Positions 11,108-33,076 are shown, counted from the stretch's first letter. The stretch: DNA of 34,259 nt from Candidatus Parcubacteria bacterium (GCA_026395655.1 JAPLYJ010000064.1:1-34259); one strand, 5' to 3'. Notes: a model not told the origin generated them from the letters alone. Translations and numbers: made by a program.

Positions 11108-11226
11108 TTGAGAAGTTCTTTAATAATTTATTTATGAATGTAGCCGTAGCCACAAGATTCTAATTTTTTGGAATTTTATGGCTATGACTACTAATAATAG
11201 TTCTTTAGCAGAAAAGGAGACTGATC

Positions 11227-11916
11227 ATGCCTAGCGTGTTCGGTACACTTCACATGAGCACAGTAGCTGAAGCAATTACATTATTATATGAAAGATTGGC
11301 TAGTCCTGATGGAGAAACATGGTTAAACGCCTTTCAGAGATTCCTCTATATGGAAAACCCATGGGTAAATTTCGAAGTTTGGAAAACCATTACCCTTGAC
11401 GCAGAATTACGAACTGCTGACGATTTCCGTCGTACTCTATTATCTGGCGGCTTTTATAAAGATGATGGAGTTAACGACATGCTTAATAATTCTGCACTCG
11501 ACGTGGCAACCAGTGAAGTAAAAGTTCAACTTGTTAATATTTCAGCTGCCGAACTTGGCTTTTCGTGTAACATCATCCCTCTTATTAATATTTATCGAAA
11601 AGCCATAAGTCTTGGTCTTGAACTCTGCCCAGATAATCTAGGCCCTCAATTGCGTGTGCAATATATGGACCAGCCGGCTGATGAATATCTTCATGTAGCC
11701 ATGGAACAGATTAAATGTGCAAGTGGCGACTTTGTCTATACCATAGAGTGTGACAAAGAAGGCAAAAAAGGGATTAACAGTTTTGAAGTTAATATGAGAT
11801 CCAGTTGTTTGCGTGATAGCAACTGTCGTTTCATTTTTATTATCCCTTTCTGTCAACCTGTTCCTCGGTCTATACAAAGTGGATTTGAGACGAGGACTTT
11901 TCGTTGGATTTCCTGA
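11227..11916 (+). CDS. Hypothetical protein (229 aa) in a G+C-richer, SD-bearing stand-alone cassette
   Basis: Strong SD aaaaGGAGactgatcATG. Composition is clearly less AT-rich than the flanks. It has its own promoter and terminator. I recognise no family motif. Confidence 0.6.
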   Translation: MPSVFGTLHMSTVAEAITLLYERLASPDGETWLNAFQRFLYMENPWVNFEVWKTITLDAELRTADDFRRTLLSGGFYKDDGVNDMLNNSALDVATSEVKVQLVNISAAELGFSCNIIPLINIYRKAISLGLELCPDNLGPQLRVQYMDQPADEYLHVAMEQIKCASGDFVYTIECDKEGKKGINSFEVNMRSSCLRDSNCRFIFIIPFCQPVPRSIQSGFETRTFRWIS

Positions 11917-11941
11917 AGAGTTTAGCTTCTTAGTAATACAA

Positions 11942-11972
11942 GACCCCTCAAATAATTGAGGGGTCATTTTTT
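11942..11972 (+). terminator. Rho-independent terminator
   Basis: GACCCCTCA aataat TGAGGGGTC followed by ATTTTTTATT. Confidence 0.85.
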
Positions 11973-12046
11973 ATTCTAATTTTTTAAGATTTTAATGGAT
12001 ATTCATTTGCCTGGTTTATTGATATGATATATAATAGACAAAGTAT

Positions 12047-12397
12047 ATGTTTCCTACTAAAAAATTACCTGACAGCGATCGTTTTTCCTGGACTAATCAT
12101 GCTCAGAACAAGATGCAGCATTACCAATTGTCTGTTAATAGAGTAAAAAGGGTAACCCTTCATCCTGATCGTATCGAATATGGCGTAGCTCCTAAAACCA
12201 TTGCTGTCATGCAAACTTCCGGTACGAAAAAACATCCATATGAAATTTGGACCATGTACCAATTGATATCTAAAAAAACAATGTTATCAGGTCAAAAATT
12301 TAAAATTATCAGCGCTTGGAGATATCCGGGTATTAGTCCTAGAGACAAAGCCATACCCATCCCCGATGATATTAAAAAAGAATTAGGAATAGAATAA
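12047..12397 (+). CDS. Hypothetical protein (116 aa)
   Basis: ORF only. It is packed 1 nt from the next gene. No motif recognised. Confidence 0.5.
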   Translation: MFPTKKLPDSDRFSWTNHAQNKMQHYQLSVNRVKRVTLHPDRIEYGVAPKTIAVMQTSGTKKHPYEIWTMYQLISKKTMLSGQKFKIISAWRYPGISPRDKAIPIPDDIKKELGIE

Positions 12398-12398
12398 T

Positions 12399-12770
12399 AT
12401 GGATATAGATTTATTTGAAAAAATAGCTGATGAAGCCTTAAATAGATTGCCGGAAAAATTCTTAAAACGTTTGAATAATGTTGCTATCGTAGTAGCAGAA
12501 GTACCTAGCGAATATCAATTGAAAAAAATGAGAATGAGAAAAGGGGATTGTTTGTTAGGTTTGTATGAAGGTGTACCTTTAAATCAGCGTGGTCATTATT
12601 CCAATGTTTTACCAGACAAGATCACTATTTTTAAAAATGCCATTGAAAATCAAGCAGAATATGGGCAAGATTTAAAAGAAATTGTTTTTCATACCATTTG
12701 GCATGAGATCGCTCATCATTTTGGTTTTAATGAAAGAGAAGTTAGTATTTTAGAAAAAAATAAAAAATAA
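12399..12770 (+). CDS. Small zincin-like metallopeptidase family protein (DUF1025-like)
   Basis: C-terminal HEIAHHFGF zinc-binding motif. LLGLYEGVPL and the size of about 120 aa are typical of this family. Confidence 0.65.
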   Translation: MDIDLFEKIADEALNRLPEKFLKRLNNVAIVVAEVPSEYQLKKMRMRKGDCLLGLYEGVPLNQRGHYSNVLPDKITIFKNAIENQAEYGQDLKEIVFHTIWHEIAHHFGFNEREVSILEKNKK

Positions 12771-12777
12771 AAAACAT

Positions 12778-13554
12778 ATGAAGCTTAAAACATATCTAGG
12801 ATTGATTATCACCGTCATCGTATTATCTATTTTGTGGTGGGTTAGTATGTCTTTTAAAAATCTTTCTTTTCAACAAGAAGTTATCAATTATCAACCTAAC
12901 ACTGTCGCAGAATCAGAATCTTGGGATCCTGAAAATGTAGATATATATCCCTTTTTACCAAAATATGTAGATGGAGCACAATGGCAAAAAAAGATTGTTG
13001 ATATTAATAATGACAATATTAACGAAATCATGATTTTTGCTTGCGATCAAACTGAAAATAGCTACCAAGCTAATGTTTCTATTTTAGGTCCTAATGAAAA
13101 AAATCAACCTATTCTAAAATCAGAATTAGTTTTACCTAATAGCCAAGCTATGGGTAATTTTGATTGTCCTAGCTTCAAAGAATTAAAAGATGTTAATCAA
13201 GATAGCTTAAATGAAATTTTGATTAATCTAGGAGAACCAGAAACAGGGGTATCAAATTTTGGTATTTTCTCATATGATGGTACTAATTTAAATTGGGTAA
13301 AAATAGAAGATGTTTTAGGTAATGATTCTTTCTCAATTTTTAGTGAAGGATCATCAGAACAAGATCTTTCTGTTTTTGAATTAATACCTTTAGAAAAAGG
13401 CATTGTGCAATTTAAAGGAACAATATTAGAAAATAATTCTTGGTCAGGTATTGTAGATGCTTACATCTGGCAAGACAATATTTTTAAATATGATCAGAGT
13501 CTCTCTGAAAAATTAAAAAAACAAGGTCCTACCTTGGAAACATTAAATGGATAA
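12778..13554 (+). CDS. Membrane-anchored hypothetical protein, possible FG-GAP/Ca-binding-like repeats
   Basis: N-terminal TM helix. DINNDNINEIMIF and DVNQDSLNEILINLG look like DxNxD...E loops. Weak call. Confidence 0.45.
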   Translation: MKLKTYLGLIITVIVLSILWWVSMSFKNLSFQQEVINYQPNTVAESESWDPENVDIYPFLPKYVDGAQWQKKIVDINNDNINEIMIFACDQTENSYQANVSILGPNEKNQPILKSELVLPNSQAMGNFDCPSFKELKDVNQDSLNEILINLGEPETGVSNFGIFSYDGTNLNWVKIEDVLGNDSFSIFSEGSSEQDLSVFELIPLEKGIVQFKGTILENNSWSGIVDAYIWQDNIFKYDQSLSEKLKKQGPTLETLNG

Positions 13555-14398
13555 AAAAATATATGTAATTAATGGTGCTGGGGACCAAGAACCCCTTTCT
13601 GAGTTTAAGGTATATCGTAGCGCTAAACGTAGCGGGGCTAGTAATGATTTAGCCAAGCAAATTGTTTTTGAGATACAACAAAAAGCATATCCTGGTATTA
13701 CTACCCAGGAAATTCATGACAGAATAAAATCTTTTTTAATCAAAGAAGCTCCGTATTCTGCCATGCGTTTTAGTTTAAAAGAAGGTATTAGAAAATTAGG
13801 ACCTACTGGTTTTCATTTTGAAAAATACGTAGCTGATATTTTTGAAGACTATGGCTATGCTGTCCAAAACCATCAATATCTTCCCGGGGTATGTGTCAAT
13901 CACGAAGTTGATTTTTTAGCTAAAAAAGAAAAAAAGATTTTTGTGGGAGAATGTAAATATCACAATACCATTGGTTGCCGTGTAGACTTGAAAGTAGTTT
14001 TAGCTAATCATTCTCGTATCACAGATTTAGAAAATGGTAAATTCTTTAAAACAAAAGAATTAAAAGATTTAAAAATGCAAGGTATTGTGGTAACTAACAC
14101 CAAGTTTACTACTGAAGCTATCAAATACACTCAATGCGTAGGCTTGGATCTTTTAGGTTGGAGACACCCCAATGATCATGGCTTAGAATATATGATAGAA
14201 TCAAGAAAACTATACCCTGTGACTATTTTACCTTCTTTGACTGATAATTTTATTGGATCTTTTGCTGAAGAAAGAATCATGTTGGTTAAAGATGTTTTGG
14301 TGTTGGATTTAATACGTTTTGGTCGTAAATGGGGGATTCCGGAAAGCAGAATGAGACAGATTAAAAAAGAAGCAGAGTTATTGATGAATTCTAAATAG
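13547..14398 (+). CDS. ATP-cone domain fused to a restriction-endonuclease-like (Mrr/PD-(D/E)xK) domain
   Basis: N-terminal IYVINGAGDQEPLSEFKVYRS...TTQEIHDRI (ATP-cone-like). Nuclease core FEKYVADIFEDYGY...HEVDFLAKKEKKIFVGECKYH. Confidence 0.6.
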   Translation: MDKKIYVINGAGDQEPLSEFKVYRSAKRSGASNDLAKQIVFEIQQKAYPGITTQEIHDRIKSFLIKEAPYSAMRFSLKEGIRKLGPTGFHFEKYVADIFEDYGYAVQNHQYLPGVCVNHEVDFLAKKEKKIFVGECKYHNTIGCRVDLKVVLANHSRITDLENGKFFKTKELKDLKMQGIVVTNTKFTTEAIKYTQCVGLDLLGWRHPNDHGLEYMIESRKLYPVTILPSLTDNFIGSFAEERIMLVKDVLVLDLIRFGRKWGIPESRMRQIKKEAELLMNSK

Positions 14399-14399
14399 C

Positions 14400-15392
14400 A
14401 TGAATGAGATTATTGAAAAAATTAAACAATCAGGTTTAAAAGGCAGAGGAGGTGCTAATTTTCCTGTAGGAATTAAATGGGAAATTTTTAATGCAACCTT
14501 GGCTAACAAAAAATATGTAATCATGAATGCCGCTGAAGGTGAGCCTGATGTTTTTAAGGATAGATATATTTTAGAAAATCATTTAGAAGAAACATTGAAA
14601 GGTTTTAAGTTAGCTTTAGATTTATTTGAAAATACTCAAGGGTATATTTTCCTTAACAAAAGTTTATATGATCTTTTAGAAAACAAGATACGTAAGTTTG
14701 TAAATAAATGGCCAGTTAATTTGGTAAAAGAAAAAGGTGGATATTTAAACGGTGAAGAAACTGTTTTAATAGAATCTATAGAAGGTCATAGGTTGGAACC
14801 CAGGATTAAACCACCATACCCACCGGAAAAAGGTTTGTGGCAATTTCCCACTTTGATAAACAATGTAGAAACTTTTTACCATGTCTATCAAATCAGTCAA
14901 AACCAATATCATCAAACTAGATTTTATTCCCTTACAGGTGACTTAAATAATATAGGCGTATATGAGTTAAAAGAAGATTCAAATATTTTAGAAATTTTAA
15001 AACAAACAAAAAATCTTTCTGAAAAACCTTTTTTTGTTCAAGTAGGTGGAGGAGCGAGCGGTATTTTCTTAGAACAAGAGAATTTGGATCAACCAATCTC
15101 AGGCGCTGGTTCTTTAATTGTATATGATACAAATAAAACAGACAAAATTAAACTTTTAAAAAAGATATTAAGTTTTTTCTTAAAAGAAAATTGTGGTCAA
15201 TGTGTACCTTGTCGAGAAGGGATATATCGTTTGAATGAATTAATATTAAAAAAAAGTATAGATTGGCTTAAAGCTAAAGAGCTTTGCCAAACATTAAAAG
15301 AATCTAGTTTTTGCGGCTTAGGTGTAGGCTGTGGCATGGCTTGCGAATCTCTAATAGATATTATTGTTAAATTTAATCAAGCAAATGGATAA
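14400..15392 (+). CDS. NuoF/HydB-type flavoprotein subunit (NADH-binding 51-kDa-like, FMN and 4Fe-4S)
   Basis: GLKGRGGANFPVGIKWE motif. C-terminal CGQCVPCREG and SFCGLG cluster cysteines. Its stop overlaps the hydrogenase start (ATGGATAA). Confidence 0.7.
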   Translation: MNEIIEKIKQSGLKGRGGANFPVGIKWEIFNATLANKKYVIMNAAEGEPDVFKDRYILENHLEETLKGFKLALDLFENTQGYIFLNKSLYDLLENKIRKFVNKWPVNLVKEKGGYLNGEETVLIESIEGHRLEPRIKPPYPPEKGLWQFPTLINNVETFYHVYQISQNQYHQTRFYSLTGDLNNIGVYELKEDSNILEILKQTKNLSEKPFFVQVGGGASGIFLEQENLDQPISGAGSLIVYDTNKTDKIKLLKKILSFFLKENCGQCVPCREGIYRLNELILKKSIDWLKAKELCQTLKESSFCGLGVGCGMACESLIDIIVKFNQANG

Positions 15393-17091: not shown

Positions 17092-17597
17092 TGGCAGAAA
17101 CTTTAGTTTTAGAAAAAAAGAAAATAAGCACTTTAGTTTTTGTGGGTTTCTTAGCTATCTCCATTGTTGCTCCACTATTTTTAAAAACACAATTTTTAAG
17201 TGGACCTTTGGTTAATGCTGTGCTTTTTATTGTTACTATAATGTTGGGTTTAAGATATGGTATTTTAGTGAGTCTTATTCCCAGTGGGTTAGCTTTAGCC
17301 ATTGGTCTATTACCCATGGTCATTGCCCCCATGATCCCTATTATTATTTTAGGCAATATGTTAATGGTTATATCTTGTAATTACCTTAAAACAAAAAACT
17401 ATTGGCTCATGATTGTTTTTTCTAGTATTGTTAAATTTGTTTTTATATATGTTGTTTTTCAAATTGTTTTTCAAAATATCTTAGATACTAATTTAAGTAA
17501 TGTCATCTCATCCATGGTGGGCATCAATCAATTGTATACCGCGCTATTAGGCGGAGCTTTAGCTTTTTTGTTTTTAAAAAAATATAAAAAAATATGA
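17088..17597 (+). CDS. Polytopic membrane protein (about 5 TM), function unknown
   Basis: Hydrophobic throughout. Translationally coupled on both sides (ATGA-type overlaps with the hydrogenase and HIT genes). Confidence 0.55.
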   Translation: MMAETLVLEKKKISTLVFVGFLAISIVAPLFLKTQFLSGPLVNAVLFIVTIMLGLRYGILVSLIPSGLALAIGLLPMVIAPMIPIIILGNMLMVISCNYLKTKNYWLMIVFSSIVKFVFIYVVFQIVFQNILDTNLSNVISSMVGINQLYTALLGGALAFLFLKKYKKI

Positions 17598-17953
17598 CAG
17601 ATTCTAACTGTGTTTTTTGTAAAATCATTAAAAACGAAATTCCTGTTAAGAAATATTACGAAGATGATAAATTTTTAGCTGTTTTTGATATCAAACCTAT
17701 TAGCCCAGATCATATTGTTTTGATGTCAAAAAATCATTATACCCATACCAGTGATATGCCTAACTCAGACTGGCAGGAGTTTATCTTAAAAGCCAAAGAA
17801 TTAGCCGAAACTCATTTAAAAGAGATTGAAGCTGATGGTTATAACTTATTAATCAATGAAGGGGAAGCTGCTCAGTCCATGGTAGCTCACAGACCCCATT
17901 GTCATATCATTTTTAGAAAGATGGACGATGGCATTAAGATAGACCCACGTTAA
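17594..17953 (+). CDS. HIT (histidine triad) family nucleotide hydrolase/transferase
   Basis: CVFCKIIKNEIP, FLAVFDIKPISPDHIVLMSK, histidine-triad-like HRPHCHIIF. Confidence 0.7.
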   Translation: MTDSNCVFCKIIKNEIPVKKYYEDDKFLAVFDIKPISPDHIVLMSKNHYTHTSDMPNSDWQEFILKAKELAETHLKEIEADGYNLLINEGEAAQSMVAHRPHCHIIFRKMDDGIKIDPR

Positions 17954-17962
17954 ATTGACCAA

Positions 17963-17991
17963 TTGATTTATTTATGTTTTTGTATTAATAT
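17963..17991 (+). promoter_or_regulatory. Candidate sigma70-type promoter for the SIS gene
   Basis: TTGATT, 17 nt, TAATAT. The AT-rich context makes chance matches likely. Confidence 0.3.
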
Positions 17992-18000
17992 TTTTCAGAT

Positions 18001-19044: not shown

Positions 19045-19057
19045 CATATTATCACTT

Positions 19058-21006: not shown

Positions 21007-21011
21007 AAAAA

Positions 21012-21036: not shown

Positions 21037-21040
21037 AATG

Positions 21041-21604: not shown

Positions 21605-21611
21605 ATATAAA

Positions 21612-23461: not shown

Positions 23462-23480
23462 TCGCGTAGTAACAACAATC

Positions 23481-23523
23481 GAGCCCCAGTGGTTAAACAT
23501 CTACCACATGGGGCTCTTTTTTT
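23481..23523 (+). terminator. Rho-independent terminator
   Basis: GAGCCCCAGTGG ...11-nt loop... CCAC(a)TGGGGCTC followed by TTTTTTT. Confidence 0.85.
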
Positions 23524-23657
23524 AACTATAGTTTTTGAATAATATATTTTTAAAAAATATTTTTGATATTTAAACAAAAATTTGAACTTTTTAATTATTG
23601 TTTTTTGTGTTAAATTATTATTAATGGAAAAACCAAAAATAACTATAAAATAAAAAC

Positions 23658-25385: not shown

Positions 25386-25410
25386 TTTATTAATTAAAAA
25401 AACAAAAAAA

Positions 25411-26271: not shown

Positions 26272-26357
26272 TCTCAAAAATATAGAAGATTCTAATTCAA
26301 TACGACAAGGATATTAAAATATAATTAATAAGAGATAATTGATAATGAGTTAATACT

Positions 26358-29300
26358 ATGTCAGAACAAATTAATCTTTCAAAAGGGAAAGAAAAAAAGG
26401 AAACCATCTTAATACCTGAGCAACAAGTTATTAAAAATTATATTAATGAAGTTCTTGTAGCTGATAATAAATTAGATCTACCAGTAGTAATAATTTCTAG
26501 TCCCGAAGCCCAAGAAATAGTGAAGCAAAAGCTCATTACGTGTTTTAAAAACAATAATATTAATGATGCTATTAAAATTAATGATACATTTAAGCTACCA
26601 AAGGAAATAATCCAAGAAGCAGTTAAACAAGGAATTATTTATCATTTGAGAGGCCATTATATTTATAATGCTTTTGAAATTAGTAATGCATTTAATTTGC
26701 CACCAAAAATAGTCCAAGAAGTAACCAAACAAGCGCTCATTAACTATTTTGAATATGGATATATTGAGTCTGCTATCGAAATTACTGAGATATTTAATTT
26801 ACCTGATGAAATAATTTTTAGTCTTGAAGTGCAACAGGCAGCAGCACAACCATTTATTAGTAAATTTAAATATGGTTCTCTTGACGATGCTATTAAAATT
26901 AATGATACATTTAAGCTACCAAAGGAAATAATTCAAGAAACAGCTAAACAAGCGTTTATTGTATGGTTTTGCAACCATCGTATTGATGATGTTATTTATG
27001 ATATTAGCATAGCCCAATATGCATTTAATTTACCCAAAACAATAGCCCAAGATGCACCTAAACAAGGATATATTGAATGCCTTAAGAGTGGTTTAATTGA
27101 CGCTGCTATAGAAATCAAAGATATATGCAAATTATCTTTATCTAAAGAGATAATTTCTGATCCAGAAGTACAAAAAGGAATTGAAGAAGGATTTATTAAT
27201 TATCTTCATAATAATCAAATTGATATTGCTATTAAAATTAAAGATGAATTTAATCTACCAGACGAAATAGTCCAAAAAGCAGTAGAACAAGTAGTTATTA
27301 AACATTTGCGTGAGCATCAAGTTAATATTGCCATTAAAATCAAAGACAAGTTTAATTTATACATATCTCCACAAAAAATAATTGATCAGATCCCTAAGCT
27401 AGTTGATATCATTGAACAAATATCTCAATTGGCACCACCATTTAAGATGCAAACGGAGAAATCTAGCGAGTTGGTAATTGGATTGTGTCGTTTTATTAAT
27501 AAGCCAGATTATTTAATAAATCTATTAAAAGAAAAACTCTATTTGATTGATGCCATAATGAGTAACCCTCGTTTTGGTTCAAGACTTCTTTTGAAATATC
27601 CTGAATTTGACGAAATGTCTAAAGAAAATATAGAAAAACTTTTTTTAACTAAACAAAAAATATTAGAGCAAAATCCTGATATAGATCCGGAATCATTAGA
27701 ATTTCGTCAATTAATGCAGGAGGAATTAAAAACATTCAAAAACAATCCCGAAATAATGGAAGAAATCGAAAAGCAAGGAATTAATTTAGAAGAATGGCTT
27801 AATCATTCTGAAACTAGTTATTTTAACCTTTCTTCTAAGGGTAGCGAGATTAGTTTTTCAGAGAAAATCAGAACGCCAATAGATAGAATTAAAGAAACTA
27901 TTGATAGCTATGCCCATACCATTAAATCAGTTTTAAAAGAATATATACTAGAATTAAAAAAACATGAGATAGCTTTAGAAAATGATGAATCTGTTAAAGA
28001 GCAGATTACAAAAATGGAGGGTGCTTTAGAACAAGCCCAAGCAGAAGGCAATGATACAAAAATTAAAGGAATAGAAAGAGGTCTATTGACTCAAAGAGAA
28101 AGATTAAATAATCCTAAAAAGGGTATTCTTTGGGACAAACTCATGGGTGATATTGAAGCTTTCCAAGGTCTTAAAAATGATTGTTTTGATGCTCAAAAGA
28201 AATTAATAGAAGCAGAGGACAAATTAACAGGAGCTCTTGCAGGTAAAGCACCTTCTGGCAAAGGTGTTTTAGAGATAAAACAAAAAATTGCTCAAGCTAA
28301 AGAAGAATTAAGAAATAAGTTTAATGTTTTAGAAAGAAGAATTGAAAATTTTAAAATTAATTTACCCAAACTTTTATCACCGTGCCTTGGGCAAGAAAGA
28401 AGTGAAGCCTTGATTCAGGAAATAGACCAGGCAGTAGCTGAGCAATTTTATCATTTTGAATTAGATAGAACTGTTTTAGCAAATATGTTTTCTGAAAGAA
28501 ACGACAAGGAAACAGAGCAATTAGAGTCCAGACCAATGAGTATTTTTGTTTGGGCGAGAAATCCTGACATTGATCTTTATCAAGGTGATTATTCACCCTG
28601 TTGCATTTGCATAGATAGTTATGATGCTACAGAATCAACAATAGCAGATTATAATACAGATCTTGGCATTCAAATCGTTAATATTTGGGATGAAGCAAAA
28701 AACGAACCAGTTACTGCTGCCTGGTGTTGGTTGGGTCAAAACGAAAATGGAGAAAAGGCATTAGTGATAGATAACATTGAATCCAATGTACTTTTTAGTA
28801 CTAATTTTTCAGAACAATTATCTAAAGAATTATTAGATTATATTATAAATTACGCTAAAAAAATTGGAGTTGATAAAGTAATTCTAGGAGTAGACTATAG
28901 TGACCTACCTAGTGCTTCTAAGTTATTAGAATTAAAATGGGATAATAATGAATATGAAAAAATTGGTGGAAGCAATAGAGAATATGGGTATTATTTAGAG
29001 TCGGAAGGAGATATTATCAAGCTTATTTGGGACAGGAAAGAAGACGAAACAATAAAACAACCAAAAGAAGCAAGAAAACAAAAAGAAACTATTAAATTTG
29101 AAAACATATCTGTTACTAATTTGACTGAAGAAAATTTTGATGAGATTAGACAATTAGAAGCTAAAATTTATCAAGATACTGGATTAGCCCAAGGTTCAGG
29201 ATTAATAGAAAATATAAAATCTGATAATGGCTTAGAATACTCATTAATAATTAGAGGTAAACAACCAGATCAAGAAGAAAAAATTATTGGATATATCGTA

Positions 29301-29621
29301 GCCGTAGATGACGAAACCGATGAAGGTGATCCCTGCATATATTTAGAAGATATTGCAGTGTTAGATGAAGCCCAGGGTCAAGGATTGGGTTGGGAGATGC
29401 TTAAAGAATTAGTTAATAAGTTAAAAATTAAAGCACAAAAAAACAAAAAACCAATATTGCTAGATATGCATTTAAGAAAAAATTCCCAGGGATTATTACA
29501 AAAACACAAAGAAGATTTAGAAGAGATGGGGGTAAGATTAACAGAAGAAGCATTAGAACCTAATTATTATGATACAAATGAAGATGCGTTGTATCAGATT
29601 TATCAAATTCAAATAGATTAA
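26358..29621 (+). CDS. Large multidomain protein (1087 aa): N-terminal array of about 34-aa helical repeats, a coiled-coil-like middle, a Cys/Trp-rich domain and a C-terminal GNAT N-acetyltransferase
   Basis: Repeats F(N/K)LPxEIxQxAxKQxxIxxL...I(D/N)xAIxIxD x about 8. GNAT motif A IYLEDIAVLDEAQGQGLGWEMLKELV at roughly aa 995-1020. Confidence 0.8.
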   Translation: MSEQINLSKGKEKKETILIPEQQVIKNYINEVLVADNKLDLPVVIISSPEAQEIVKQKLITCFKNNNINDAIKINDTFKLPKEIIQEAVKQGIIYHLRGHYIYNAFEISNAFNLPPKIVQEVTKQALINYFEYGYIESAIEITEIFNLPDEIIFSLEVQQAAAQPFISKFKYGSLDDAIKINDTFKLPKEIIQETAKQAFIVWFCNHRIDDVIYDISIAQYAFNLPKTIAQDAPKQGYIECLKSGLIDAAIEIKDICKLSLSKEIISDPEVQKGIEEGFINYLHNNQIDIAIKIKDEFNLPDEIVQKAVEQVVIKHLREHQVNIAIKIKDKFNLYISPQKIIDQIPKLVDIIEQISQLAPPFKMQTEKSSELVIGLCRFINKPDYLINLLKEKLYLIDAIMSNPRFGSRLLLKYPEFDEMSKENIEKLFLTKQKILEQNPDIDPESLEFRQLMQEELKTFKNNPEIMEEIEKQGINLEEWLNHSETSYFNLSSKGSEISFSEKIRTPIDRIKETIDSYAHTIKSVLKEYILELKKHEIALENDESVKEQITKMEGALEQAQAEGNDTKIKGIERGLLTQRERLNNPKKGILWDKLMGDIEAFQGLKNDCFDAQKKLIEAEDKLTGALAGKAPSGKGVLEIKQKIAQAKEELRNKFNVLERRIENFKINLPKLLSPCLGQERSEALIQEIDQAVAEQFYHFELDRTVLANMFSERNDKETEQLESRPMSIFVWARNPDIDLYQGDYSPCCICIDSYDATESTIADYNTDLGIQIVNIWDEAKNEPVTAAWCWLGQNENGEKALVIDNIESNVLFSTNFSEQLSKELLDYIINYAKKIGVDKVILGVDYSDLPSASKLLELKWDNNEYEKIGGSNREYGYYLESEGDIIKLIWDRKEDETIKQPKEARKQKETIKFENISVTNLTEENFDEIRQLEAKIYQDTGLAQGSGLIENIKSDNGLEYSLIIRGKQPDQEEKIIGYIVAVDDETDEGDPCIYLEDIAVLDEAQGQGLGWEMLKELVNKLKIKAQKNKKPILLDMHLRKNSQGLLQKHKEDLEEMGVRLTEEALEPNYYDTNEDALYQIYQIQID
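26466..27390 (+). repeat. Intragenic array of about 8 degenerate 34-codon repeats. Two segments 321 nt apart are nearly identical at the DNA level.
   Basis: gatgctattaaaattaatgatacatttaagctaccaaaggaaataat is identical at 26565-26611 and 26886-26932 (both encode DAIKINDTFKLPKEII). Confidence 0.85.
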
Positions 29622-29637
29622 GATGTTTTACCACCTA

Positions 29638-29666
29638 TTGACAAATCTTTAAGAATATGCATAATA
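29638..29666 (+). promoter_or_regulatory. Consensus sigma70-type promoter P1, 17 nt after the stop of the 1087-aa gene
   Basis: TTGACA (29638-29643), 17 nt, ATAATA (29661-29666). Confidence 0.6.
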
Positions 29667-29671
29667 ACAAA

Positions 29672-29976
29672 TAGAACATTGAGATTAGTTTTTTAAAAAT
29701 GCTTTGGATGATTGCTGACTGTTATTTAGCTACTTAGAGATAGGTGATTAAATAACAGCCAGCAACATCGGCTGACACCTCGCCCTAGGTGGAAAGGCAC
29801 CCCTAGGAACGAAAGGAGACGCCTCCGTATGGTTCCATACCCTGCAGGTGTTCCCCCTTAGCATTTTTTTAAGGCGACGACACCGCCTTATTCATCCCCG
29901 CCCAGTCTGGTGTCGAGACTAGGGCTTATAGAAAAAAATTTGGTAAGTCTCAGCCGAAATATGACTGAGACTTACC
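29672..29976 (+). ncRNA. Candidate structured RNA A1 (about 300 nt), unknown class
   Basis: No long ORF. Contains a 17-bp AT-rich hairpin (29712-29765), a CCTAGG hairpin, a 10-codon mini-ORF (29829-29861), an AAGGCG/CGCCTT hairpin (29871-29889), a hairpin with a GGUGUCG loop (29901-29924) and a terminal 12-bp hairpin (29942-29976). Confidence 0.45.
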
Positions 29977-29981
29977 ACCAT

Positions 29982-30010
29982 TTGACAAATTCTGATAGAT
30001 ATGCTATACT
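29982..30010 (+). promoter_or_regulatory. Consensus sigma70-type promoter P2
   Basis: TTGACA (29982-29987), 17 nt, TATACT (30005-30010). Confidence 0.6.
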
Positions 30011-30015
30011 AAGTG

Positions 30016-30206
30016 AGTAATTGAATAGAGTTAGGTTTTTAAGCTAGTTTGTCCCCAAAGCTTCCAGAACTTTACAATTTAAAAAGTATACATTAAGGAG
30101 AGGCCGCCCGAGCTGGGGCGGTAATACAAATCAGCTAAAACGGCTAAGCGAAGTATCTTTAGGTTAATTTTTAATCTTCTCCGGATATTTCGCTTAGCCG
30201 TTTTTT
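30016..30206 (+). ncRNA. Candidate small RNA B (about 190 nt) ending in a long intrinsic terminator
   Basis: No ORF after its AAGGAGAGG motif. Contains a CCGCCC gagct GGGCGG hairpin. The terminator CGGCTAAGCGAA...TTCGCTTAGCCG (30141-30200, extendable to about 18 bp) is followed by TTTTTT. Confidence 0.45.
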
Positions 30207-30752
30207 AAACGGTTAACAGCACCTTAACATATTGTTCAAAATCATCTGCCATTCACTTTTTAAGGAGAGAGTGGCTACCTTAATAGGTAGTAACAGGAGA
30301 GAGTCCAAGGAGAGAGAATGGATTATAGATAATTTTGAATGAAGCCCAAACCAAATTAGCGAGTTAGAGAATTAAATTAAAAGGGCAAAAATATTTAATT
30401 CTTCAAATACCAAATATTGGTTAAAAAATAAACTCGCTGCTCCTAATTTAGCGGTAAAACTGCGGTTAGGACTGCTGCAATTAAGATTAACCCCCTTAAT
30501 TGGTCAGCAGGCCTTAGATTTGCTTGATACAAATTAAGAAAATTTAAGGCCTGCTAATTCTCAGCAGGAGAAAGGTGGTGGTGCCGATGATCGCATCGGG
30601 CATCCCGCCGTAACAAATCAAGGACGGCACCGTCCTCTCTATCCGAGAAGGGTTGACACATCAGTCTTGGTGCCGAGATTGATGGAAAAACGGTTTATGG
30701 GGTAAGTTTACCGAGACTTCGAGAGAAATAAACTCTCGGCTAAACTTACCCC
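30207..30752 (+). ncRNA. Hairpin-dense non-coding stretch including RNA A2, the 3'-module paralogue of A1
   Basis: Three AGGAGAGAG copies (30263-30316). A multibranch unit closed by GCGAGTT/AACTCGC. A perfect 10-bp GCAGGCCTTA/TAAGGCCTGC stem. A mini-ORF at 30587-30613. An AGGACG/CGTCCT hairpin (30621-30636). A GGUGCCG-loop hairpin (30659-30684). A terminal hairpin at 30699-30752. Confidence 0.4.
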
Positions 30753-30843
30753 CTCACATTCAGATTATAAATTAAAAATAATTTGTAATTTGAAACATGA
30801 GGATAGAGTTCTTTTAAAAATAAAAAATCGCTTCTAGCTATTT

Positions 30844-30892
30844 CTGGCTGCTGTTTAGGTATTTAATATTTAGATATTTGAATAGCAGTCAG
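30844..30892 (+). promoter_or_regulatory. Conserved 14-bp leader hairpin (copy 1)
   Basis: CTGGCTGCTGTTTA ...21 nt... TGAATAGCAGTCAG with three G-U pairs. The paralogue at 31800-31848 differs only on the 3' arm, and pairing is kept. Confidence 0.6.
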
Positions 30893-30947
30893 AACGACCC
30901 TCAGAAGTCCTGACCGTAGTATAGCAGGCCGAGGAAGAAGGAGAAAC

Positions 30948-31217
30948 ATGCAATGCACGAAGGAGTGGAAAACCCAGGATGTTATTACACGCGGGGAACG
31001 CGTAACCTGGTGGGAGGCAAACCACTACCGGGTAATTGTCCCGGTATTCGAAAGTAGCAATGAGGAATTTGAGTTTCTCATTGCCCACAAGCTAGAACAT
31101 GCGGACCAGTACGGTGATTCTTCCGGAGATTCTTCCTTCTCAGATTTCTTTTGGGACAGGATAGAGAGCTTAGCAGAGACACTCGGGGTGCCTGCCCCGC
31201 AAAGGTCGTCTCGCTAA
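30948..31217 (+). CDS. Possible small protein (89 aa) in module copy 1. Coding status uncertain because the segment is hairpin-rich.
   Basis: SD gaAGGAGaaacATG. Protein-like sequence with a GDSSGDSS tandem repeat. It also contains perfect inverted repeats (31026-31046, 31057-31084, 31184-31199). Confidence 0.35.
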   Translation: MQCTKEWKTQDVITRGERVTWWEANHYRVIVPVFESSNEEFEFLIAHKLEHADQYGDSSGDSSFSDFFWDRIESLAETLGVPAPQRSSR

Positions 31218-31268
31218 GTCTACGGAATAATAGTTGGAGAGGTGTCCCGAATCCTCTAAAAAATCGGG

Positions 31269-31294
31269 GGCAGAGCGATGCCGATCGCTCTGCC
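31269..31294 (+). promoter_or_regulatory. Conserved GC-rich hairpin downstream of the module ORF (copy 1)
   Basis: GGCAGAGCGAT gccg ATCGCTCTGCC. The paralogue at 32112-32135 (AGCAGAGCGA tgcg TCGTTCTGCT) carries a G-C to A-T compensatory pair. Confidence 0.6.
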
Positions 31295-31327
31295 AAATGG
31301 CCCTTCGGGGTTTATTCGGGAGGTTCT

Positions 31328-31363
31328 GGAAAGTTTCCTCGGTAAAAACTTTCCAATCTTTTT
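31328..31363 (+). terminator. Rho-independent terminator (module copy 1, first unit)
   Basis: GGAAAGTTT cctcggtaa AAACTTTCC then AATCTTTTT. Confidence 0.7.
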
Positions 31364-31441
31364 CAGCTCATAAACAAAATTTGTGGTCTGAAAGAGGAGA
31401 AATATTAGTTCTTTACAATTTTTAATATTTCCTTATTCTAA

Positions 31442-31496
31442 TTTTGTGTTGCTAATTTAGTAATTTATTTTAGATTATTAAATCGGCAACACAAAA
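31442..31496 (+). promoter_or_regulatory. Conserved leader hairpin immediately upstream of the SD of the small TM ORF (copy 1)
   Basis: TTTTGTGTTGC ...33 nt... GCAACACAAAA. Paralogue at 32267-32321. Confidence 0.6.
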
Positions 31497-31517
31497 AAGA
31501 AAGGAGAAAAGAGAAAA

Positions 31518-31667
31518 ATGAGTCCAGAAGATACGGGACCTTTTTGGGGCCCACTGGTTATCTACGGTCCCTTGTTGTTGGGGCTCGCAATTGTAGCGGT
31601 TATATCCCGTTACAATGAATGGAAAAAGGAGATCACTAATCTCCTAGAAAGGAGAAAAAGAAAATAA
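31518..31667 (+). CDS. Small membrane peptide (49 aa): one TM helix plus a basic tail
   Basis: SD aAAGGAGaaaagagaaaaATG. Sequence MSPEDTGPFWGPLVIYGPLLLGLAIVAVISRYNEWKKEITNLLERRKRK. Below the ORF-track size cut-off. Confidence 0.5.
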   Translation: MSPEDTGPFWGPLVIYGPLLLGLAIVAVISRYNEWKKEITNLLERRKRK

Positions 31668-31679
31668 GAAAAGGCGGAC

Positions 31680-31716
31680 GGCAGGTTCCGCTAAGGGTTA
31701 TAACCTGCCTCTTTTT
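31680..31716 (+). terminator. Rho-independent terminator (end of module copy 1)
   Basis: GGCAGGTT ...14 nt... AACCTGCC then TCTTTTT. Confidence 0.75.
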
Positions 31717-31799
31717 CAGATTATAAATTAAAAAAAATTTGTAATTTGAAACATGAGGTTAGAGTTCTTTTAAAAATTAAAAAACGCTTCTAGTTATTT

Positions 31800-31848
31800 C
31801 TGGCTGCTGTTTAGATATTTAATATTTAGATATTTAAATAGCGGCCAG
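31800..31848 (+). promoter_or_regulatory. Conserved 14-bp leader hairpin (copy 2)
   Basis: CTGGCTGCTGTTTA ...21 nt... TAAATAGCGGCCAG. Confidence 0.6.
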
Positions 31849-31898
31849 GAATTGGTCGACTAATTCTTACCTAAGAAGGTAAGAGAAAGGAGTATGGG

Positions 31899-32090
31899 AT
31901 GGGGATCCCAGTTGGTTATACAAAACACCTAATACTGTGTTTTGTGGAACAGGCGCAGGATCAGGCGCCTGTCACGGGCACAGGCGACTCCACGTGGTAT
32001 GTGGAGTCGCTATGTAATATCATCCGCCGTTTATTGGCGGATGAGCCAGATGAGCCATTCCTAGCAGTAGTTAATCAAGGGGTGCCCTAA
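31899..32090 (+). CDS. Possible small protein (63 aa). More likely a multi-hairpin RNA, or dual-use.
   Basis: SD aAAGGAGtatgggATG, but 31865-32043 consists of six consecutive perfect hairpins. The start codon sits inside one of them. Confidence 0.25.
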   Translation: MGIPVGYTKHLILCFVEQAQDQAPVTGTGDSTWYVESLCNIIRRLLADEPDEPFLAVVNQGVP

Positions 32091-32111
32091 ATCCTCTTTA
32101 AAAAAAATCGG

Positions 32112-32135
32112 AGCAGAGCGATGCGTCGTTCTGCT
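32112..32135 (+). promoter_or_regulatory. Conserved GC-rich hairpin downstream of the module ORF (copy 2)
   Basis: AGCAGAGCGA tgcg TCGTTCTGCT, homologous to 31269-31294. Confidence 0.55.
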
Positions 32136-32163
32136 AGGTTGTGCCCTGCGGGGTATAGATTCG

Positions 32164-32203
32164 CAGGGAGGCGTGTTGGTTACACGAACTCCCTGTTCTT
32201 TTT
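32164..32203 (+). terminator. Rho-independent terminator (module copy 2, first unit)
   Basis: CAGGGAG ...18 nt with inner GTGT/ACAC... CTCCCTG then TTCTTTTT. Same position as 31328-31363 but a different sequence. Confidence 0.7.
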
Positions 32204-32266
32204 CAGCTCATAAACAGAATTTGTGATCTGAAAGAGGAGAAAGTATTAGTTTTTTTCTTTTTCTAA

Positions 32267-32321
32267 TTTTGTGTTGCTAATTTAGTAATTTACTTTAGAT
32301 TATTAAATCGACAACACAAAA
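32267..32321 (+). promoter_or_regulatory. Conserved leader hairpin upstream of the small TM ORF (copy 2)
   Basis: TTTTGTGTTG ... CAACACAAAA. Confidence 0.55.
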
Positions 32322-32338
32322 AAAGAGGAGGCATTAAA

Positions 32339-32482
32339 ATGACCATCGAACAATTAGCACGGCTCCTACTTTTAGTAGGAGTGATCATGATTGCAGCTTA
32401 GATCATGGCTGCAATCACCTGGAAGAAGTATTCCAGGTGGTGGATCTGGAAGTATAAAATAGAAAGGAGGGAAAAAAGATAA
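32339..32482 (+). pseudogene. Paralogue of the small TM peptide interrupted by an in-frame TAG (32399-32401)
   Basis: SD agAGGAGGcattaaaATG. Sequence MTIEQLARLLLLVGVIMIAA*IMAAITWKKYSRWWIWKYKIERREKR. It shares TM + WKK + ERR(K/E)KR architecture with 31518-31667. The TAG lies in the loop of a perfect 10-bp hairpin, TGATTGCAGC/GCTGCAATCA. Confidence 0.35.
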
Positions 32483-32528
32483 AAAAAGCGGATGGCAGGT
32501 TTCGCTAACGGTTATACCCTACCTCTTT

Positions 32529-32641
32529 TTCAGATTATAAATTAAAAATAATTTGTAGTTTGAAAGAAGGGGATATTAGCTCTTTAAAAAACATTTTTGC
32601 AAGGAATACAATTATATTTTAGATGTAGTTGTATTCCTCGC
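32529..32641 (+). repeat. Third, partial module copy (box retained, different leader hairpin)
   Basis: 32529-32565 matches the box at 30759-30795 and 31715-31751. This is followed by the hairpin GCAAGGAATACAA...TTGTATTCCTCGC (32599-32641). Confidence 0.7.
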
Positions 32642-32689
32642 AAAAAGATAGCCACTAAAAACTATACGTGGCAGAAAGGAGGTAATAAA

Positions 32690-33076
32690 ATGAAAGAATT
32701 GGAAGATGCTTTCAACTTTTTGGATAAAAAAATCCAAGAAGTAAAAGATGAGGAAGAGGCAACAAAAAAACGTGCTGCCATTTTTCCCGAAACTGCCCTG
32801 AAGTTGTTACAAAGGGCAACTAGAGAGACAGTGCATATTCTTCTGCCTCACTCCACAGGCAAAATGTGCCTAATCTTTTCACCTCCCATCGAAAAGATTC
32901 AAAAATGGTGGCTTTGCATATATCATGGAGAGCCATTATCGTTTGTTTTTGACGACGACGGATGGGCCAATAACATGCTCGTCAAAGAATGCCTCCAGGC
33001 GTTTATTGATAGGGCTGTTGAGCCCAAAGTATTTCTGGCTTTTCCCAAAGAGCCAGAAATGTTTCCTCAAGTTTAA
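32690..33076 (+). CDS. Hypothetical protein (128 aa)
   Basis: SD aAAGGAGGtaataaaATG at the internal Met of ORF 32597-33076. Protein-like sequence (MKELEDAFNFLDKKIQEVKDEEE...). No motif recognised. Confidence 0.55.
   Translation: MKELEDAFNFLDKKIQEVKDEEEATKKRAAIFPETALKLLQRATRETVHILLPHSTGKMCLIFSPPIEKIQKWWLCIYHGEPLSFVFDDDGWANNMLVKECLQAFIDRAVEPKVFLAFPKEPEMFPQV

What the first reader, a model, noticed from the sequence alone, without database searches (positions are those of the whole stretch)
11200..32700. Two translation-initiation regimes on one contig: 0 of 14 backbone genes versus 7 of 7 island ORFs carry a Shine-Dalgarno
I inspected the 20 nt upstream of 14 starts: uvrA, 4432, 5195, typA, nagZ-like, 12047, 12778, 18001, 19058, efp, 23658, 25411, 26358 and secD. 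All are A/T-only with no GGAG.

Every ORF in the G+C-richer cassettes (11227, 22826, 30948, 31518, 31899, 32339, 32690) has AGGAG or GGAGG 4-10 nt before its ATG.

This points to one of three explanations. The cassettes may have been acquired recently from an SD-using donor such as a phage or mobile element. They may form a dedicated, differently translated gene class. Or many of the motifs may serve a non-initiation role.
Basis: seen in the sequence. Interest (0 to 1): 0.65.

Follow-up and report, generated by a model that had tools for sequence, protein, structure and literature searches.

The report
SD-led GC-rich cassettes in SD-less Patescibacterium
In this tiny-genome (Patescibacteria/CPR) bacterium the ordinary AT-rich genes have no ribosome-binding (Shine-Dalgarno) motif. 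A few G+C-richer add-on gene units do carry one, each with its own promoter and terminator, and they give the most abundant transcripts of this stretch in lake samples. A relative keeps the same motif although its ribosomal RNA has lost the matching sequence.

Summary
None of 23 scored backbone starts has a Shine-Dalgarno (SD) motif, and all 7 island ORFs have AGGAG or GGAGG (Fisher p = 5e-7). GC3 is 0.18-0.31 in backbone genes and 0.33-0.57 in island ORFs.

The islands are self-contained units: a TTGACA-17-TAnnnT promoter, a structured leader, an SD, an ORF and a hairpin terminator. They are single-copy and physically linked to the backbone, because DNA depth is flat across them.

In lake metatranscriptomes they give discrete transcripts far more abundant than neighbouring genes. 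One 49-aa membrane-peptide mRNA reaches depth 1,367-2,555, against 2-16 for backbone pieces.

The 211-aa ORF at 22826 belongs to a Patescibacteria-wide family of at least 149 proteins with a confident fold that has no PDB match. Its members are GC-richer than every AT-rich host examined, SD-led in about 16 of 20 loci, and sit in different neighbourhoods. One lies next to RecT and replication genes on a 60%-GC phage-like contig. The unit is nevertheless syntenic in a sister species, so it is not a recent import.

Minisyncoccus archaeiphilus shows the same contrast, yet its 16S rRNA ends in GGAUCAUUUAUUUA with no anti-SD.

Most likely these are long-resident accessory cassettes from a phage-linked gene pool. 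Who reads their SD is open.

The parts
11079..11973 (+). Cassette 1. TTGACA (11079-11084), 17 nt, TATAAA (11102-11107); leader with a strong hairpin (about 11140-11191); GGAG at 11216-11219; 229-aa ORF 11227-11916 (GC 0.40, GC3 0.33); terminator hairpin 11942-11965 plus T-run.
   Evidence: Sequence. Leader fold -32.5 kcal/mol, z = -4.35. SD energy -8.7. 20 homologues, none in Pfam or PHROGs. RNA contigs 11195-11345, 11291-11551 and 11520-11670. Same unit in the near-identical loci L008 and L009.
22710..23525 (+). Cassette 2. TTGACA (22710-22715), 17 nt, TAAGGT (22733-22738); about 80-nt leader; AGGAGG at 22816-22821; 211-aa ORF 22826-23461 (GC 0.49, GC3 0.48); terminator hairpin 23481-23516 plus T-run.
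   Evidence: Sequence. RNA contigs start at 22746/22746/22750 and end at 23468/23424/23471 in three runs, depth 18-47. DNA depth is flat, and a 12.3-kb DNA contig spans both junctions. Family of at least 149 proteins. AF2 pLDDT 92 with no PDB fold match. Syntenic in L015.
29622..33330 (+). A 3.7-kb G+C-richer, ORF-poor island between the GNAT giant gene and tRNA-Lys. It contains promoters, hairpins, about 2.1 tandem composite modules and five SD-led small ORFs. Its right-hand part varies between populations.
   Evidence: GC 0.40 against 0.31 for the backbone. SD-like motifs are 13.2 per kb on the + strand and 4.9 per kb on the - strand. Repeat families D2-D4 and D8. No Rfam family. RNA contigs cover most of it. 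Runs X1 and X2 have almost no DNA depth over 32376-33440.
30948..31217 (+). 89-aa orphan ORF behind AAGGAG (GC 0.51).
   Evidence: SD energy -8.8. RNA contigs 30892-31363, 31063-31308 and 31074-31307 at depth 44-147. No homologue among 1.8 billion representatives.
31518..31667 (+). 49-aa peptide ORF: hydrophobic helix plus basic tail. It follows a perfect leader hairpin (31442-31496) and AAGGAG. It gives the most abundant RNA of the window.
   Evidence: RNA contigs 31483-31678 at depth 2,555 (X8) and 1,367 (X11), against DNA depth 14 and 63 in the same samples. Leader fold z = -8.1.
31899..32090 (+). 63-aa orphan ORF behind AAGGAG. It occupies the slot of module copy 2 that the 89-aa ORF occupies in copy 1.
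   Evidence: SD energy -8.2. RNA contigs 31848-32092 and 31885-32055 at depth 13-28.
32339..32481 (+). Paralogue of the 49-aa peptide ORF behind GAGGAGG, interrupted by an in-frame TAG at 32399-32401.
   Evidence: Between the two copies the leader is about 95% identical and the ORF body about 45%, with the same length and architecture. One RNA contig, 32322-32496, at depth 9.9.
32690..33076 (+). 128-aa orphan ORF behind AAGGAGG, followed by hairpin 33123-33149.
   Evidence: SD energy -12.9. RNA contigs from about 32636-32647 to 33055-33104 at depth 48-60 in three runs. Only itself found among 5.8 billion clusters.
1827..11077 (+). Backbone block 1 (uvrA, two DUF3298 genes, typA, nagZ-like, uvrC, tsaC). 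AT-rich, with no SD.
12047..22646 (.). Backbone block 2 (zincin-like, Mrr/ATP-cone, NuoF-like, Fe-hydrogenase-like, ECF-S, HIT, SIS, glycosyltransferase, efp, epmA). AT-rich, with no SD.
23658..29621 (+). Backbone block 3 (CYTH-kinase-CYTH, Csx3-like, GNAT giant). AT-rich, with no SD.
33380..33453 (+). tRNA-Lys (UUU), which bounds the 3.7-kb island.

Best explanation
The window mixes two gene populations with different expression syntax.

(1) The AT-rich core genes start translation without an SD. Their upstream 15-20 nt are A-rich, almost G-free and often end in U directly before AUG. Several have a -10-like box so close to the AUG that the mRNA would be leaderless or nearly so.

(2) Three G+C-richer segments hold autonomous accessory cassettes. 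Each has its own sigma-70-type promoter, a 60-120-nt leader with a 5' stem-loop, a strong SD-like motif, an ORF without known function and an intrinsic terminator.

These cassettes belong to a gene pool that is exchanged among Patescibacteria and phage-like elements, in which GC-rich, SD-led genes are the norm. They keep that syntax after integration. At least one has been resident since before two species split. They are transcribed far more strongly than their neighbours.

Shown: the two classes, the unit architecture, physical linkage, strong transcription, the family-wide GC excess and SD, and the phage-contig copy.

Inferred: the structured, GC-rich mRNAs cannot use the unstructured A-rich route of the core genes. 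The SD either anchors the ribosome, if this organism still has an anti-SD, or is inherited baggage, if it does not.
For: - SD contrast of 0 of 23 scored backbone starts against 7 of 7 island ORFs, plus the GC3 gap.
- Upstream profile of 24 backbone starts: A 50-79% at -2 to -14, G 12% or less at all but two positions, T 62% at -1.
- RNA contig ends agree with the predicted promoter and terminator of cassette 2 in three runs.
- RNA against DNA depth in the same samples: cassettes 47-2,555 against 12-15 in sample S4. Backbone pieces are 2-16 and sparse.
- Share of sampled words held by RNA runs: 0.71-0.78 (cassette 2), 0.43-0.59 (island), 0.14-0.19 (backbone control).
- Flat DNA depth and contigs spanning the junctions.
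- The 22826 family has at least 149 members. It lies in different contexts, is GC-richer than its flanks in AT-rich hosts and is SD-led in window, L001, L004, L006 and about 12 of 16 further loci.
- Core genes in those AT-rich loci (alaS, infA, rpmJ, rpsM, secD, secF) lack an SD.
- Phage-like contig L032 carries RecT, an O-like initiator, an AAA ATPase and a reverse transcriptase, and most of its 15 listed ORFs have an SD (9 at -8 kcal/mol or stronger).
- Synteny and conserved promoter, leader and SD in sister species L015.
- The island lies next to a tRNA and varies between populations.
Against: - This organism's 16S 3' end was not read, so it is unknown whether anything can pair with the SD.
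- In Minisyncoccus archaeiphilus the 16S ends GGAUCAUUUAUUUA without CCUCC, yet the family gene 3.7 kb away keeps GGAAGGAG 7 nt before AUG. The SD is therefore not explained by canonical pairing there.
- In 14 loci with proven anti-SD-less 16S, SD-led ORFs are not significantly above chance: 6 of 141 against 2.3%, p = 0.1.
- No mobility gene, integrase or empty site was found for any cassette in the window.
- Three of the island ORFs are orphans, so their translation is unproven.
- Logan contig depth is a rough expression measure, and Illumina libraries under-represent 30%-GC RNA. A few-fold of the excess could be bias. This cannot account for the 100-fold case.
Confidence: 0.55

Rival explanations
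1. Native second translation channel. The organism keeps a functional anti-SD and uses it only for a small, separately controllable set of highly expressed, structured mRNAs. Core mRNAs use an SD-independent route. The SD is under selection and the cassettes are a regulon rather than imports.
For: - The SD is retained at canonical spacing in about 16 of 20 family loci, although protein divergence exceeds 30-50%.
- Promoter, leader and SD are conserved between two species.
- Transcript abundance is very high.
- The leaders leave the SD region unpaired behind a 5' stem-loop.
Against: - Minisyncoccus shows the same pattern without an anti-SD.
- Family members sit in unrelated neighbourhoods and on phage-like contigs.
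- Three cassette ORFs are orphans, and the island differs between populations. This looks like turnover, not a conserved regulon.
Confidence: 0.22
2. The SD-like motifs mostly act at the RNA level rather than as start signals. They could be 5' stabiliser or ribosome-standby elements, or parts of structured non-coding RNAs. Several 'ORFs' of the 3.7-kb island would then be chance frames in GC-richer RNA genes.
For: - About 20 of 33 SD-like motifs on the + strand of 29622-33330 precede no ORF of note.
- The motif density is strongly strand-biased, 13.2 against 4.9 per kb.
- The 89-aa and 128-aa ORFs are orphans.
- ORF-free parts at 29762-30091 and 30211-30480 are also transcribed.
- The motif persists in an anti-SD-less relative.
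Against: - The ORFs at 22826 and 11227 are clearly protein-coding families.
- The two TM-peptide copies keep their length and architecture while the nucleotide sequence diverges to about 45%.
- No Rfam family matches.
- A stabiliser that works by binding 30S subunits would also need an anti-SD.
Confidence: 0.13
3. Recent horizontal import from a high-GC, SD-using non-CPR donor, not yet ameliorated.
For: GC and GC3 excess together with the SD. A few family members are binned with Gammaproteobacteria, Smithella or Methylomirabilis.
Against: - Cassette 2 is syntenic in a sister species and diverges about as much as its flanks: 87% against 90-94% nucleotide identity.
- The promoters are embedded in AT-rich host-like sequence.
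- Most named family members are from Patescibacteria.
- The odd bins are short contigs.
Confidence: 0.05
4. Assembly chimera or contamination. The GC-rich pieces would come from another organism and were joined in by the assembler.
For: The contig does contain two assembler-made tandem duplications.
Against: - DNA depth is flat across islands and backbone in four runs from two studies.
- Single contigs span the junctions: 12.3 kb across cassette 2, and 3.3-3.5 kb from the GNAT gene into the island.
- The same arrangement occurs in independent assemblies L008, L009, L011, L012 and L015.
Confidence: 0.01

Closest known systems
SD-independent translation in Bacteroidia (Flavobacterium johnsoniae; Baez et al. 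2019, PMC6847099). From my own knowledge, a few genes such as rpsU stay SD-led there and the anti-SD is sequestered.
   Same: Nearly all genes lack an SD. Upstream regions are A-rich and unstructured. A small minority of genes carry a strong SD.
   Different: In Bacteroidia the anti-SD is retained and the SD-led exceptions are core genes. Here the SD-led genes are GC-rich accessory units with their own promoter and terminator. At least one relative with the same pattern has no anti-SD at all.
Loss of the anti-SD motif in a Parcubacteria subgroup (Tsurumaki et al. 2022, PMC9297842; read)
   Same: Same clade. I reproduced the loss directly for Minisyncoccus. I also found it in about 45 Parcubacteria-type 16S genes from metagenomes; 14 of these were checked with Rfam.
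   Different: In the passages I read, the paper does not mention that SD-led genes persist in such genomes. The status of this organism is unknown.
Phage 'morons': autonomous promoter-ORF-terminator units between conserved genes (concept of Hendrix and colleagues, from my own knowledge)
   Same: Self-contained transcription units, deviating composition, unknown accessory functions, strong expression independent of neighbours, and a link to phage gene pools (L032).
   Different: They sit in a cellular chromosome among housekeeping genes, not in a prophage. No phage genes are in the window. One unit is conserved in place across species.
Genomic islands and HGT in Patescibacteria (Gios et al. 2025, PMC12455944; abstract read)
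   Same: Compositionally deviant, mostly Patescibacteria-to-Patescibacteria exchange, partly mediated by viruses. The 3.7-kb island is tRNA-adjacent and variable between strains.
   Different: The units here are 0.8-1 kb single genes, much smaller than classical islands. The translation-signal dichotomy is not mentioned in the abstract, and that paper did not appear in full-text searches for 'Shine-Dalgarno' with Patescibacteria.
5' mRNA stabilisers with an SD-like element (STAB-SD of Bacillus thuringiensis cryIIIA; from my own knowledge)
   Same: An SD-like motif in a leader, sometimes with no start codon behind it, on very abundant transcripts.
   Different: STAB-SD works by pairing with the 16S 3' end. 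That was not tested here, and it would fail in anti-SD-less relatives.

Membership tests
Canonical SD:anti-SD initiation | Purine-rich GGAGG-type core 4-12 nt upstream of the start codon | tested here: met
   All 7 island ORFs, with duplex energies of -8.2 to -12.9 kcal/mol and spacing of 5-11 nt.
Canonical SD:anti-SD initiation | Complementary CCUCC at the 3' end of the same organism's 16S rRNA | not testable with these tools
Attempts through sequencing runs failed. In the relative Minisyncoccus the tail is GGAUCAUUUAUUUA, so the feature is not met there.
Canonical SD:anti-SD initiation | Translation of the ORF depends on the motif | not testable with these tools
   No proteomic or ribosome-profiling data were accessible.
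Moron-like autonomous expression cassette | Own promoter and own terminator, giving a monocistronic transcript | tested here: met
   Consensus promoters and hairpin plus T-run. RNA contigs at 22746-23470 and about 32636-33104 are bounded by them in 3-4 runs.
Moron-like autonomous expression cassette | Composition deviates from the surrounding genome | tested here: met
   GC 0.40-0.51 against 0.26-0.36. GC3 0.33-0.57 against 0.18-0.31.
Moron-like autonomous expression cassette | Present or absent between otherwise collinear relatives (an empty site exists) | tested here: inconclusive
   Cassette 2 is present in both species compared and cassette 1 in all near-identical loci. Only the right-hand part of the 3.7-kb island differs between populations. 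No empty site was seen.
Moron-like autonomous expression cassette | Resides in a phage or prophage | tested here: not met
   No phage genes in the window. Only a homologue lies on a phage-like contig.
Classical genomic island | tRNA-adjacent, compositionally deviant, strain-variable | tested here: met
   For 29622-33330 only: tRNA-Lys at 33380, GC 0.40, and variability in X1 and X2.
Classical genomic island | Integrase or other mobility gene, and flanking direct repeats | tested here: not met
   No such ORF. No flanking repeat among the 20 repeat families shown.
Bacteroidia-type SD-independent initiation (backbone genes) | Absence of an SD with an A-rich, G-poor upstream region | tested here: met
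   None of 23 scored starts has an SD. Over 24 starts, A is 50-79% at -2 to -14 and G is 12% or less at all but two positions.
Bacteroidia-type SD-independent initiation (backbone genes) | Anti-SD retained but occluded | not testable with these tools
Type I toxin-like small hydrophobic peptide (49-aa ORF) | Small TM peptide with a charged tail on a stable, abundant, structured mRNA | tested here: met
   Sequence, RNA depth 1,367-2,555 and leader hairpin z = -8.1.
Type I toxin-like small hydrophobic peptide (49-aa ORF) | Cognate antisense RNA antitoxin | not tested
   The RNA contigs carry no strand information.

The most novel reading that the evidence does not exclude
In Parcubacteria-type lineages that have lost the anti-SD, possibly including this one, the GGAGG motif in front of GC-rich accessory genes is kept by selection. 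It would be read by something other than the 16S 3' tail, such as another rRNA segment, a ribosomal protein or a phage-supplied factor. That would give these cells a second, separately addressable initiation channel for a mobile, highly expressed gene set.
Probability: 0.12. Interest if true: 0.9.

Novelty: new variant of a known kind. Interest (0 to 1): 0.6.

Why it matters
SD-poor genomes are known, and anti-SD loss in some Parcubacteria has been published. I found no paper describing a distinct class of SD-led, GC-rich, self-contained genes inside such genomes. These genes are strongly transcribed and shared with phage-like elements.

If the motif is functional where no anti-SD exists, it points to an unknown way of recruiting ribosomes. 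If it is baggage, it marks the mobile gene pool of Patescibacteria with a simple sequence signature. That signature could be used to chart gene flow and phage-host links in a phylum with almost no cultures.

There are also practical consequences:
- Gene callers trained on one start model will mis-annotate one of the two classes.
- The very abundant small-ORF transcripts are candidates for the proteins these episymbionts make most.

Tried and rejected
Laying DNA runs on a metagenomic Parcubacteria 16S end (L044) gave only short mixed contigs that cannot be assigned.
- Extending the sample along the 71.8-kb relative contig: the 1,087-aa protein is not on record.
- rRNA or known ncRNA as the cause of the GC-rich stretches: Rfam finds only tRNA-Lys at gathering threshold and only chance-level miRNA-like hits at E up to 1.
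- Pfam, PHROGs and PADLOC for the island proteins: no hit.
- PDB fold search for the 22826 family: best TM-score about 0.15, so no match.
- Alternative genetic code as the cause of the split uvrA and typA: rejected. The cause is two exact tandem duplications that DNA contigs skip.
- Testing the two-class pattern in proven anti-SD-less genomes: 6 of 141 ORFs are SD-led against a 2.3% null, p = 0.1, which is inconclusive. The metagenome pattern also pulled in many eukaryotic 18S ends, which share GGATCATTA.
- Viral link of the 11227 family: three distant IMG/VR hits, but the one region inspected (L160) has no recognisable phage genes.
- The RNA contigs carry no strand information, and their ends often coincide with repeat boundaries. 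Except for cassette 2, transcript ends were not interpreted.

Full report
**What the window is.** The window is 34.3 kb at about 31% G+C. It is densely packed with housekeeping genes: uvrB/A/C, typA, nagZ-like, tsaC, efp/epmA, secD and a NuoF/Fe-hydrogenase-like pair. Earlier notes on the same genome and the names attached to homologues place it in Patescibacteria (CPR). Everything below therefore rests on the window, on related loci and on public sequencing runs.

**Observation.** I listed the 20-25 nt upstream of every plausible start.
- None of 23 scored backbone starts contains GGAG or GAGG. Mean duplex energy with a canonical anti-SD is -0.2 kcal/mol. The typA start (6105) also shows no motif by eye but was not scored.
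- All seven island ORFs do contain the motif, at -8.2 to -12.9 kcal/mol (Fisher p = 5e-7, Mann-Whitney p = 8e-5).
- GC3 is 0.18-0.31 for the backbone and 0.33-0.57 for the islands.
- Backbone upstream regions are A-rich (50-79% A from -2 to -14) and nearly G-free, with T at -1 in 62% of cases. Several have a TAnnnT box ending 5-13 nt before the AUG. That would make the mRNA leaderless or nearly so. This is an inference and was not tested.

Caveats on the count:
- The small ORFs were partly chosen because an SD precedes them.
- The GGAG-to-AUG spacing at 31518 is 11 nt.
- The ORF at 32339 meets an in-frame TAG after 20 codons.
- About 20 of 33 SD-like motifs on the + strand of 29622-33330 precede no ORF of note.

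**Anatomy of the islands.** Each is a self-contained unit.
- Cassette 1 (11079-11973) has TTGACA-17-TATAAA, a leader with a strong hairpin (z = -4.35), GGAG, a 229-aa ORF and a terminator.
- Cassette 2 (22710-23525) has TTGACA-17-TAAGGT, an 80-nt leader, AGGAGG, a 211-aa ORF and a 12-bp terminator stem.
- The 3.7-kb stretch 29622-33330 lies between the last backbone gene and tRNA-Lys. It contains consensus promoters, many hairpins and about 2.1 tandem composite modules.
- In those modules the leaders and tails are 90-96% identical while the ORF cores differ.
- No Rfam family matches any of it.

**Not an artefact.** In four DNA runs from two studies the depth is flat across islands and backbone. 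Examples are 11.5-18.7 in X4 and 59-91 in X5. Single contigs cross the junctions. Independent assemblies show the same arrangement.

The contig does carry two assembler-made exact tandem duplications, 37 nt at 3493-3566 and 29 nt at 6129-6186. They break uvrA and typA. DNA contigs skip them, and the relative L008 has intact genes. They do not affect the finding.

**Expression.** Metatranscriptome runs from the same lake samples hold far more of the cassettes than of the backbone.

| Stretch | Share of sampled words in RNA runs |
|---|---|
| Cassette 2 | 0.71-0.78 |
| Island 30890-33110 | 0.43-0.59 |
| Equal-length backbone control | 0.14-0.19 |

Laid on the window, perfect-match RNA contigs form discrete units:

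| RNA contig position | Depth |
|---|---|
| 22746-23470 | 18-47, in three runs |
| 31063-31308 | 77-147 |
| 31483-31678 | 1,367 and 2,555 |
| 31848-32092 | 13-28 |
| 32636-33104 | 48-60 |
| 29792-30091 | 39 |
| Backbone pieces (sparse) | 2-16 |

DNA depth in the same two samples is 12-15 and 60-85. The 49-aa peptide mRNA is therefore about 100-fold or more above typical backbone signal.

The 5' ends at 22746, 22746 and 22750 fall 7-11 nt after the predicted -10 box. Contig depth is a rough measure, GC bias favours the cassettes somewhat, and strand is unknown.

**Are the ORFs genes?**
- The 211-aa ORF has at least 149 homologues at 46-74% identity. Where sources name them, they are Kaiserbacteria, Pacebacteria and Minisyncoccus (MNSN_01920).
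- An AlphaFold model built from 35 family members has pLDDT 92. It has no PDB fold match and no Pfam, PHROG or PADLOC hit.
- The 229-aa ORF has 20 homologues.
- The 128-aa and 89-aa ORFs are orphans.
- The two copies of the TM-peptide ORF keep their length and architecture (polar N-terminus, helix, W-K-K, basic tail) at about 45% nucleotide identity. That argues for coding. Copy 2 has an in-frame TAG.

**The pattern is a family property.** The homologue carries a strong SD in each of three loci while called neighbours do not.
- Minisyncoccus (L001): GGAAGGAG. Neighbours alaS, infA, rpmJ and rpsM lack an SD.
- A 37%-GC relative (L004): AGGAGG. Neighbours secD and secF lack an SD.
- Kaiserbacteria (L006): AAGGAG.

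The gene is also GC-richer than its flanks: 0.45 against 0.38-0.39, 0.54 against 0.37, and 0.59 against 0.51-0.54. In 16 further loci from species-representative genomes, about 12 have a clear SD at the true start. Gene GC is 0.39-0.67 and exceeds every AT-rich host. The neighbourhoods are unrelated to one another.

**Link to phages.**
- Five IMG/VR contigs encode family members.
- On L032 (42 kb, 60% GC) the gene, 65% identical, sits among RecT, an O-like replication initiator, an AAA ATPase and a reverse transcriptase. Most of the 15 ORFs listed there have an SD (9 at -8 kcal/mol or stronger).
- In L004 the next gene is an SD-led STIV_B116-like gene.
- In the family tree the viral copies are interspersed. 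The window's copy groups with copies from hosts of very different GC.
- The 11227 family has three distant IMG/VR relatives, but the region I inspected is not recognisably phage.

**Not recent.** L015 is a different species representative, 91% identical over 3.8 kb. It has the same epmA-cassette-CYTH order. Promoter hexamers, most of the leader and AGGAGGAAA are conserved. Nucleotide identity is 87% in the ORF against 90-94% in the flanks.

By contrast, the right-hand part of the 3.7-kb island has almost no depth in two runs from another study. Turnover therefore does occur.

**Anti-SD.** Tsurumaki et al. 2022 reported that only 48% of Parcubacteria show the CCUCCU motif.

By chance, locus L001 includes the end of the Minisyncoccus 16S. 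Its alignment reaches the last position of the Rfam model, and the tail reads GGAUCAUUUAUUUA. No CCUCC occurs in the next 100 nt. A genome without an anti-SD therefore keeps a canonical SD, at canonical spacing, in front of this family's gene.

A metagenome scan found about 45 more Parcubacteria-type 16S ends with AT-only tails. Fourteen were verified with Rfam. In their flanks SD-led ORFs are rare: 6 of 141 against a 2.3% null, p = 0.1. Those ORFs are slightly GC-richer (p = 0.035). This is inconclusive.

This organism's own tail could not be recovered.

**Reading.** The best-supported account is two gene populations.
- SD-independent, A-rich core genes.
- Long-resident but exchangeable accessory cassettes from a Patescibacteria and phage gene pool. 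They keep that pool's syntax: a strong promoter, a structured leader, an SD, GC-rich codons and a terminator. They are strongly transcribed.

Whether the SD is read in this host depends on a 16S sequence I could not see. The Minisyncoccus case shows that canonical pairing cannot be the whole story across the clade.

**Relation to earlier work.** Earlier AI notes of this scan report the same dichotomy in many CPR genomes. I treated them as leads. The tests here were made independently, and I gave my reading before seeing them. In the searchable literature I found the anti-SD loss and Patescibacteria HGT described, but not this two-class signal.

Noticed in passing
window 3493-3566 and 6129-6186: Two exact tandem duplications (37 nt x2 and 29 nt x2) split uvrA and typA into shifted frames. 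DNA contigs of four runs skip the 37-nt copy and one run skips the 29-nt copy. The relative L008 has intact 835-aa UvrA and 603-aa TypA. These are assembly-join artefacts, not biology or recoding.
   Followed up: yes
window 5195-5992: A second DUF3298 paralogue is present here and in the lake DNA runs (contig 4378-6046). It is absent from the otherwise near-identical JGI contig L008. This is a one-gene indel between populations.
   Followed up: partly
window 31483-31686: In RNA run X8 the very abundant contig (depth 2,555) joins 31686 back to 31483, a step back of 204 nt. This could be a circular or tandem RNA or cDNA form, or a template-switch or assembly artefact of an extremely abundant transcript. 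It was seen in one run only.
   Followed up: no
L001 1-325 (Minisyncoccus archaeiphilus 16S 3' end): The 16S ends GGAUCAUUUAUUUA. About 45 Parcubacteria-type 16S genes in metagenomes end similarly, for example GGAUCAUUUUUUUAAAAA and GGAUCAAUUAAACU. The start of the tail resembles the eukaryotic 18S end GGAUCAUUA. Its complement (UAAAUAAA-like) resembles the A/U-rich tracts before core-gene starts, which raises the untested idea of an altered 'AT-type' pairing.
   Followed up: partly
window, -1 to -14 of 24 backbone starts: T is at -1 in 62% of starts, A is at 50-79% from -2 to -14, and G is almost absent. This is a Kozak-like context for SD-less starts.
   Followed up: partly
window 32376-33440: This part of the island, including the 128-aa ORF, has almost no DNA depth in runs X1 and X2 (another study). 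It has full depth in X4 and X5. The cassette content varies between populations.
   Followed up: partly
window 22826-23461 and alignment A1: The 211-aa family has invariant Trp, Gly and His positions (for example GKW at 48-50, H73, W76-G77, W83). Its confidently predicted architecture is two beta domains plus a helical hairpin, with no PDB neighbour. It is a candidate new fold in a widespread CPR and phage protein.
   Followed up: partly
L158 8375-8596: In another Patescibacteria lineage infA itself is preceded by TAGGAGG. SD use by core genes therefore differs between CPR lineages.
   Followed up: no
window 29941-29977: A 15-bp perfect hairpin followed by a T-run on the minus strand suggests that part of 29.7-30.0 kb is transcribed leftwards. 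RNA contigs cover 29762-30091, but their strand is unknown.
   Followed up: no
L152 13813-13902: There is a group II intron D1-D4 match right after an anti-SD-less 16S gene in a metagenomic Parcubacteria-type locus.
   Followed up: no
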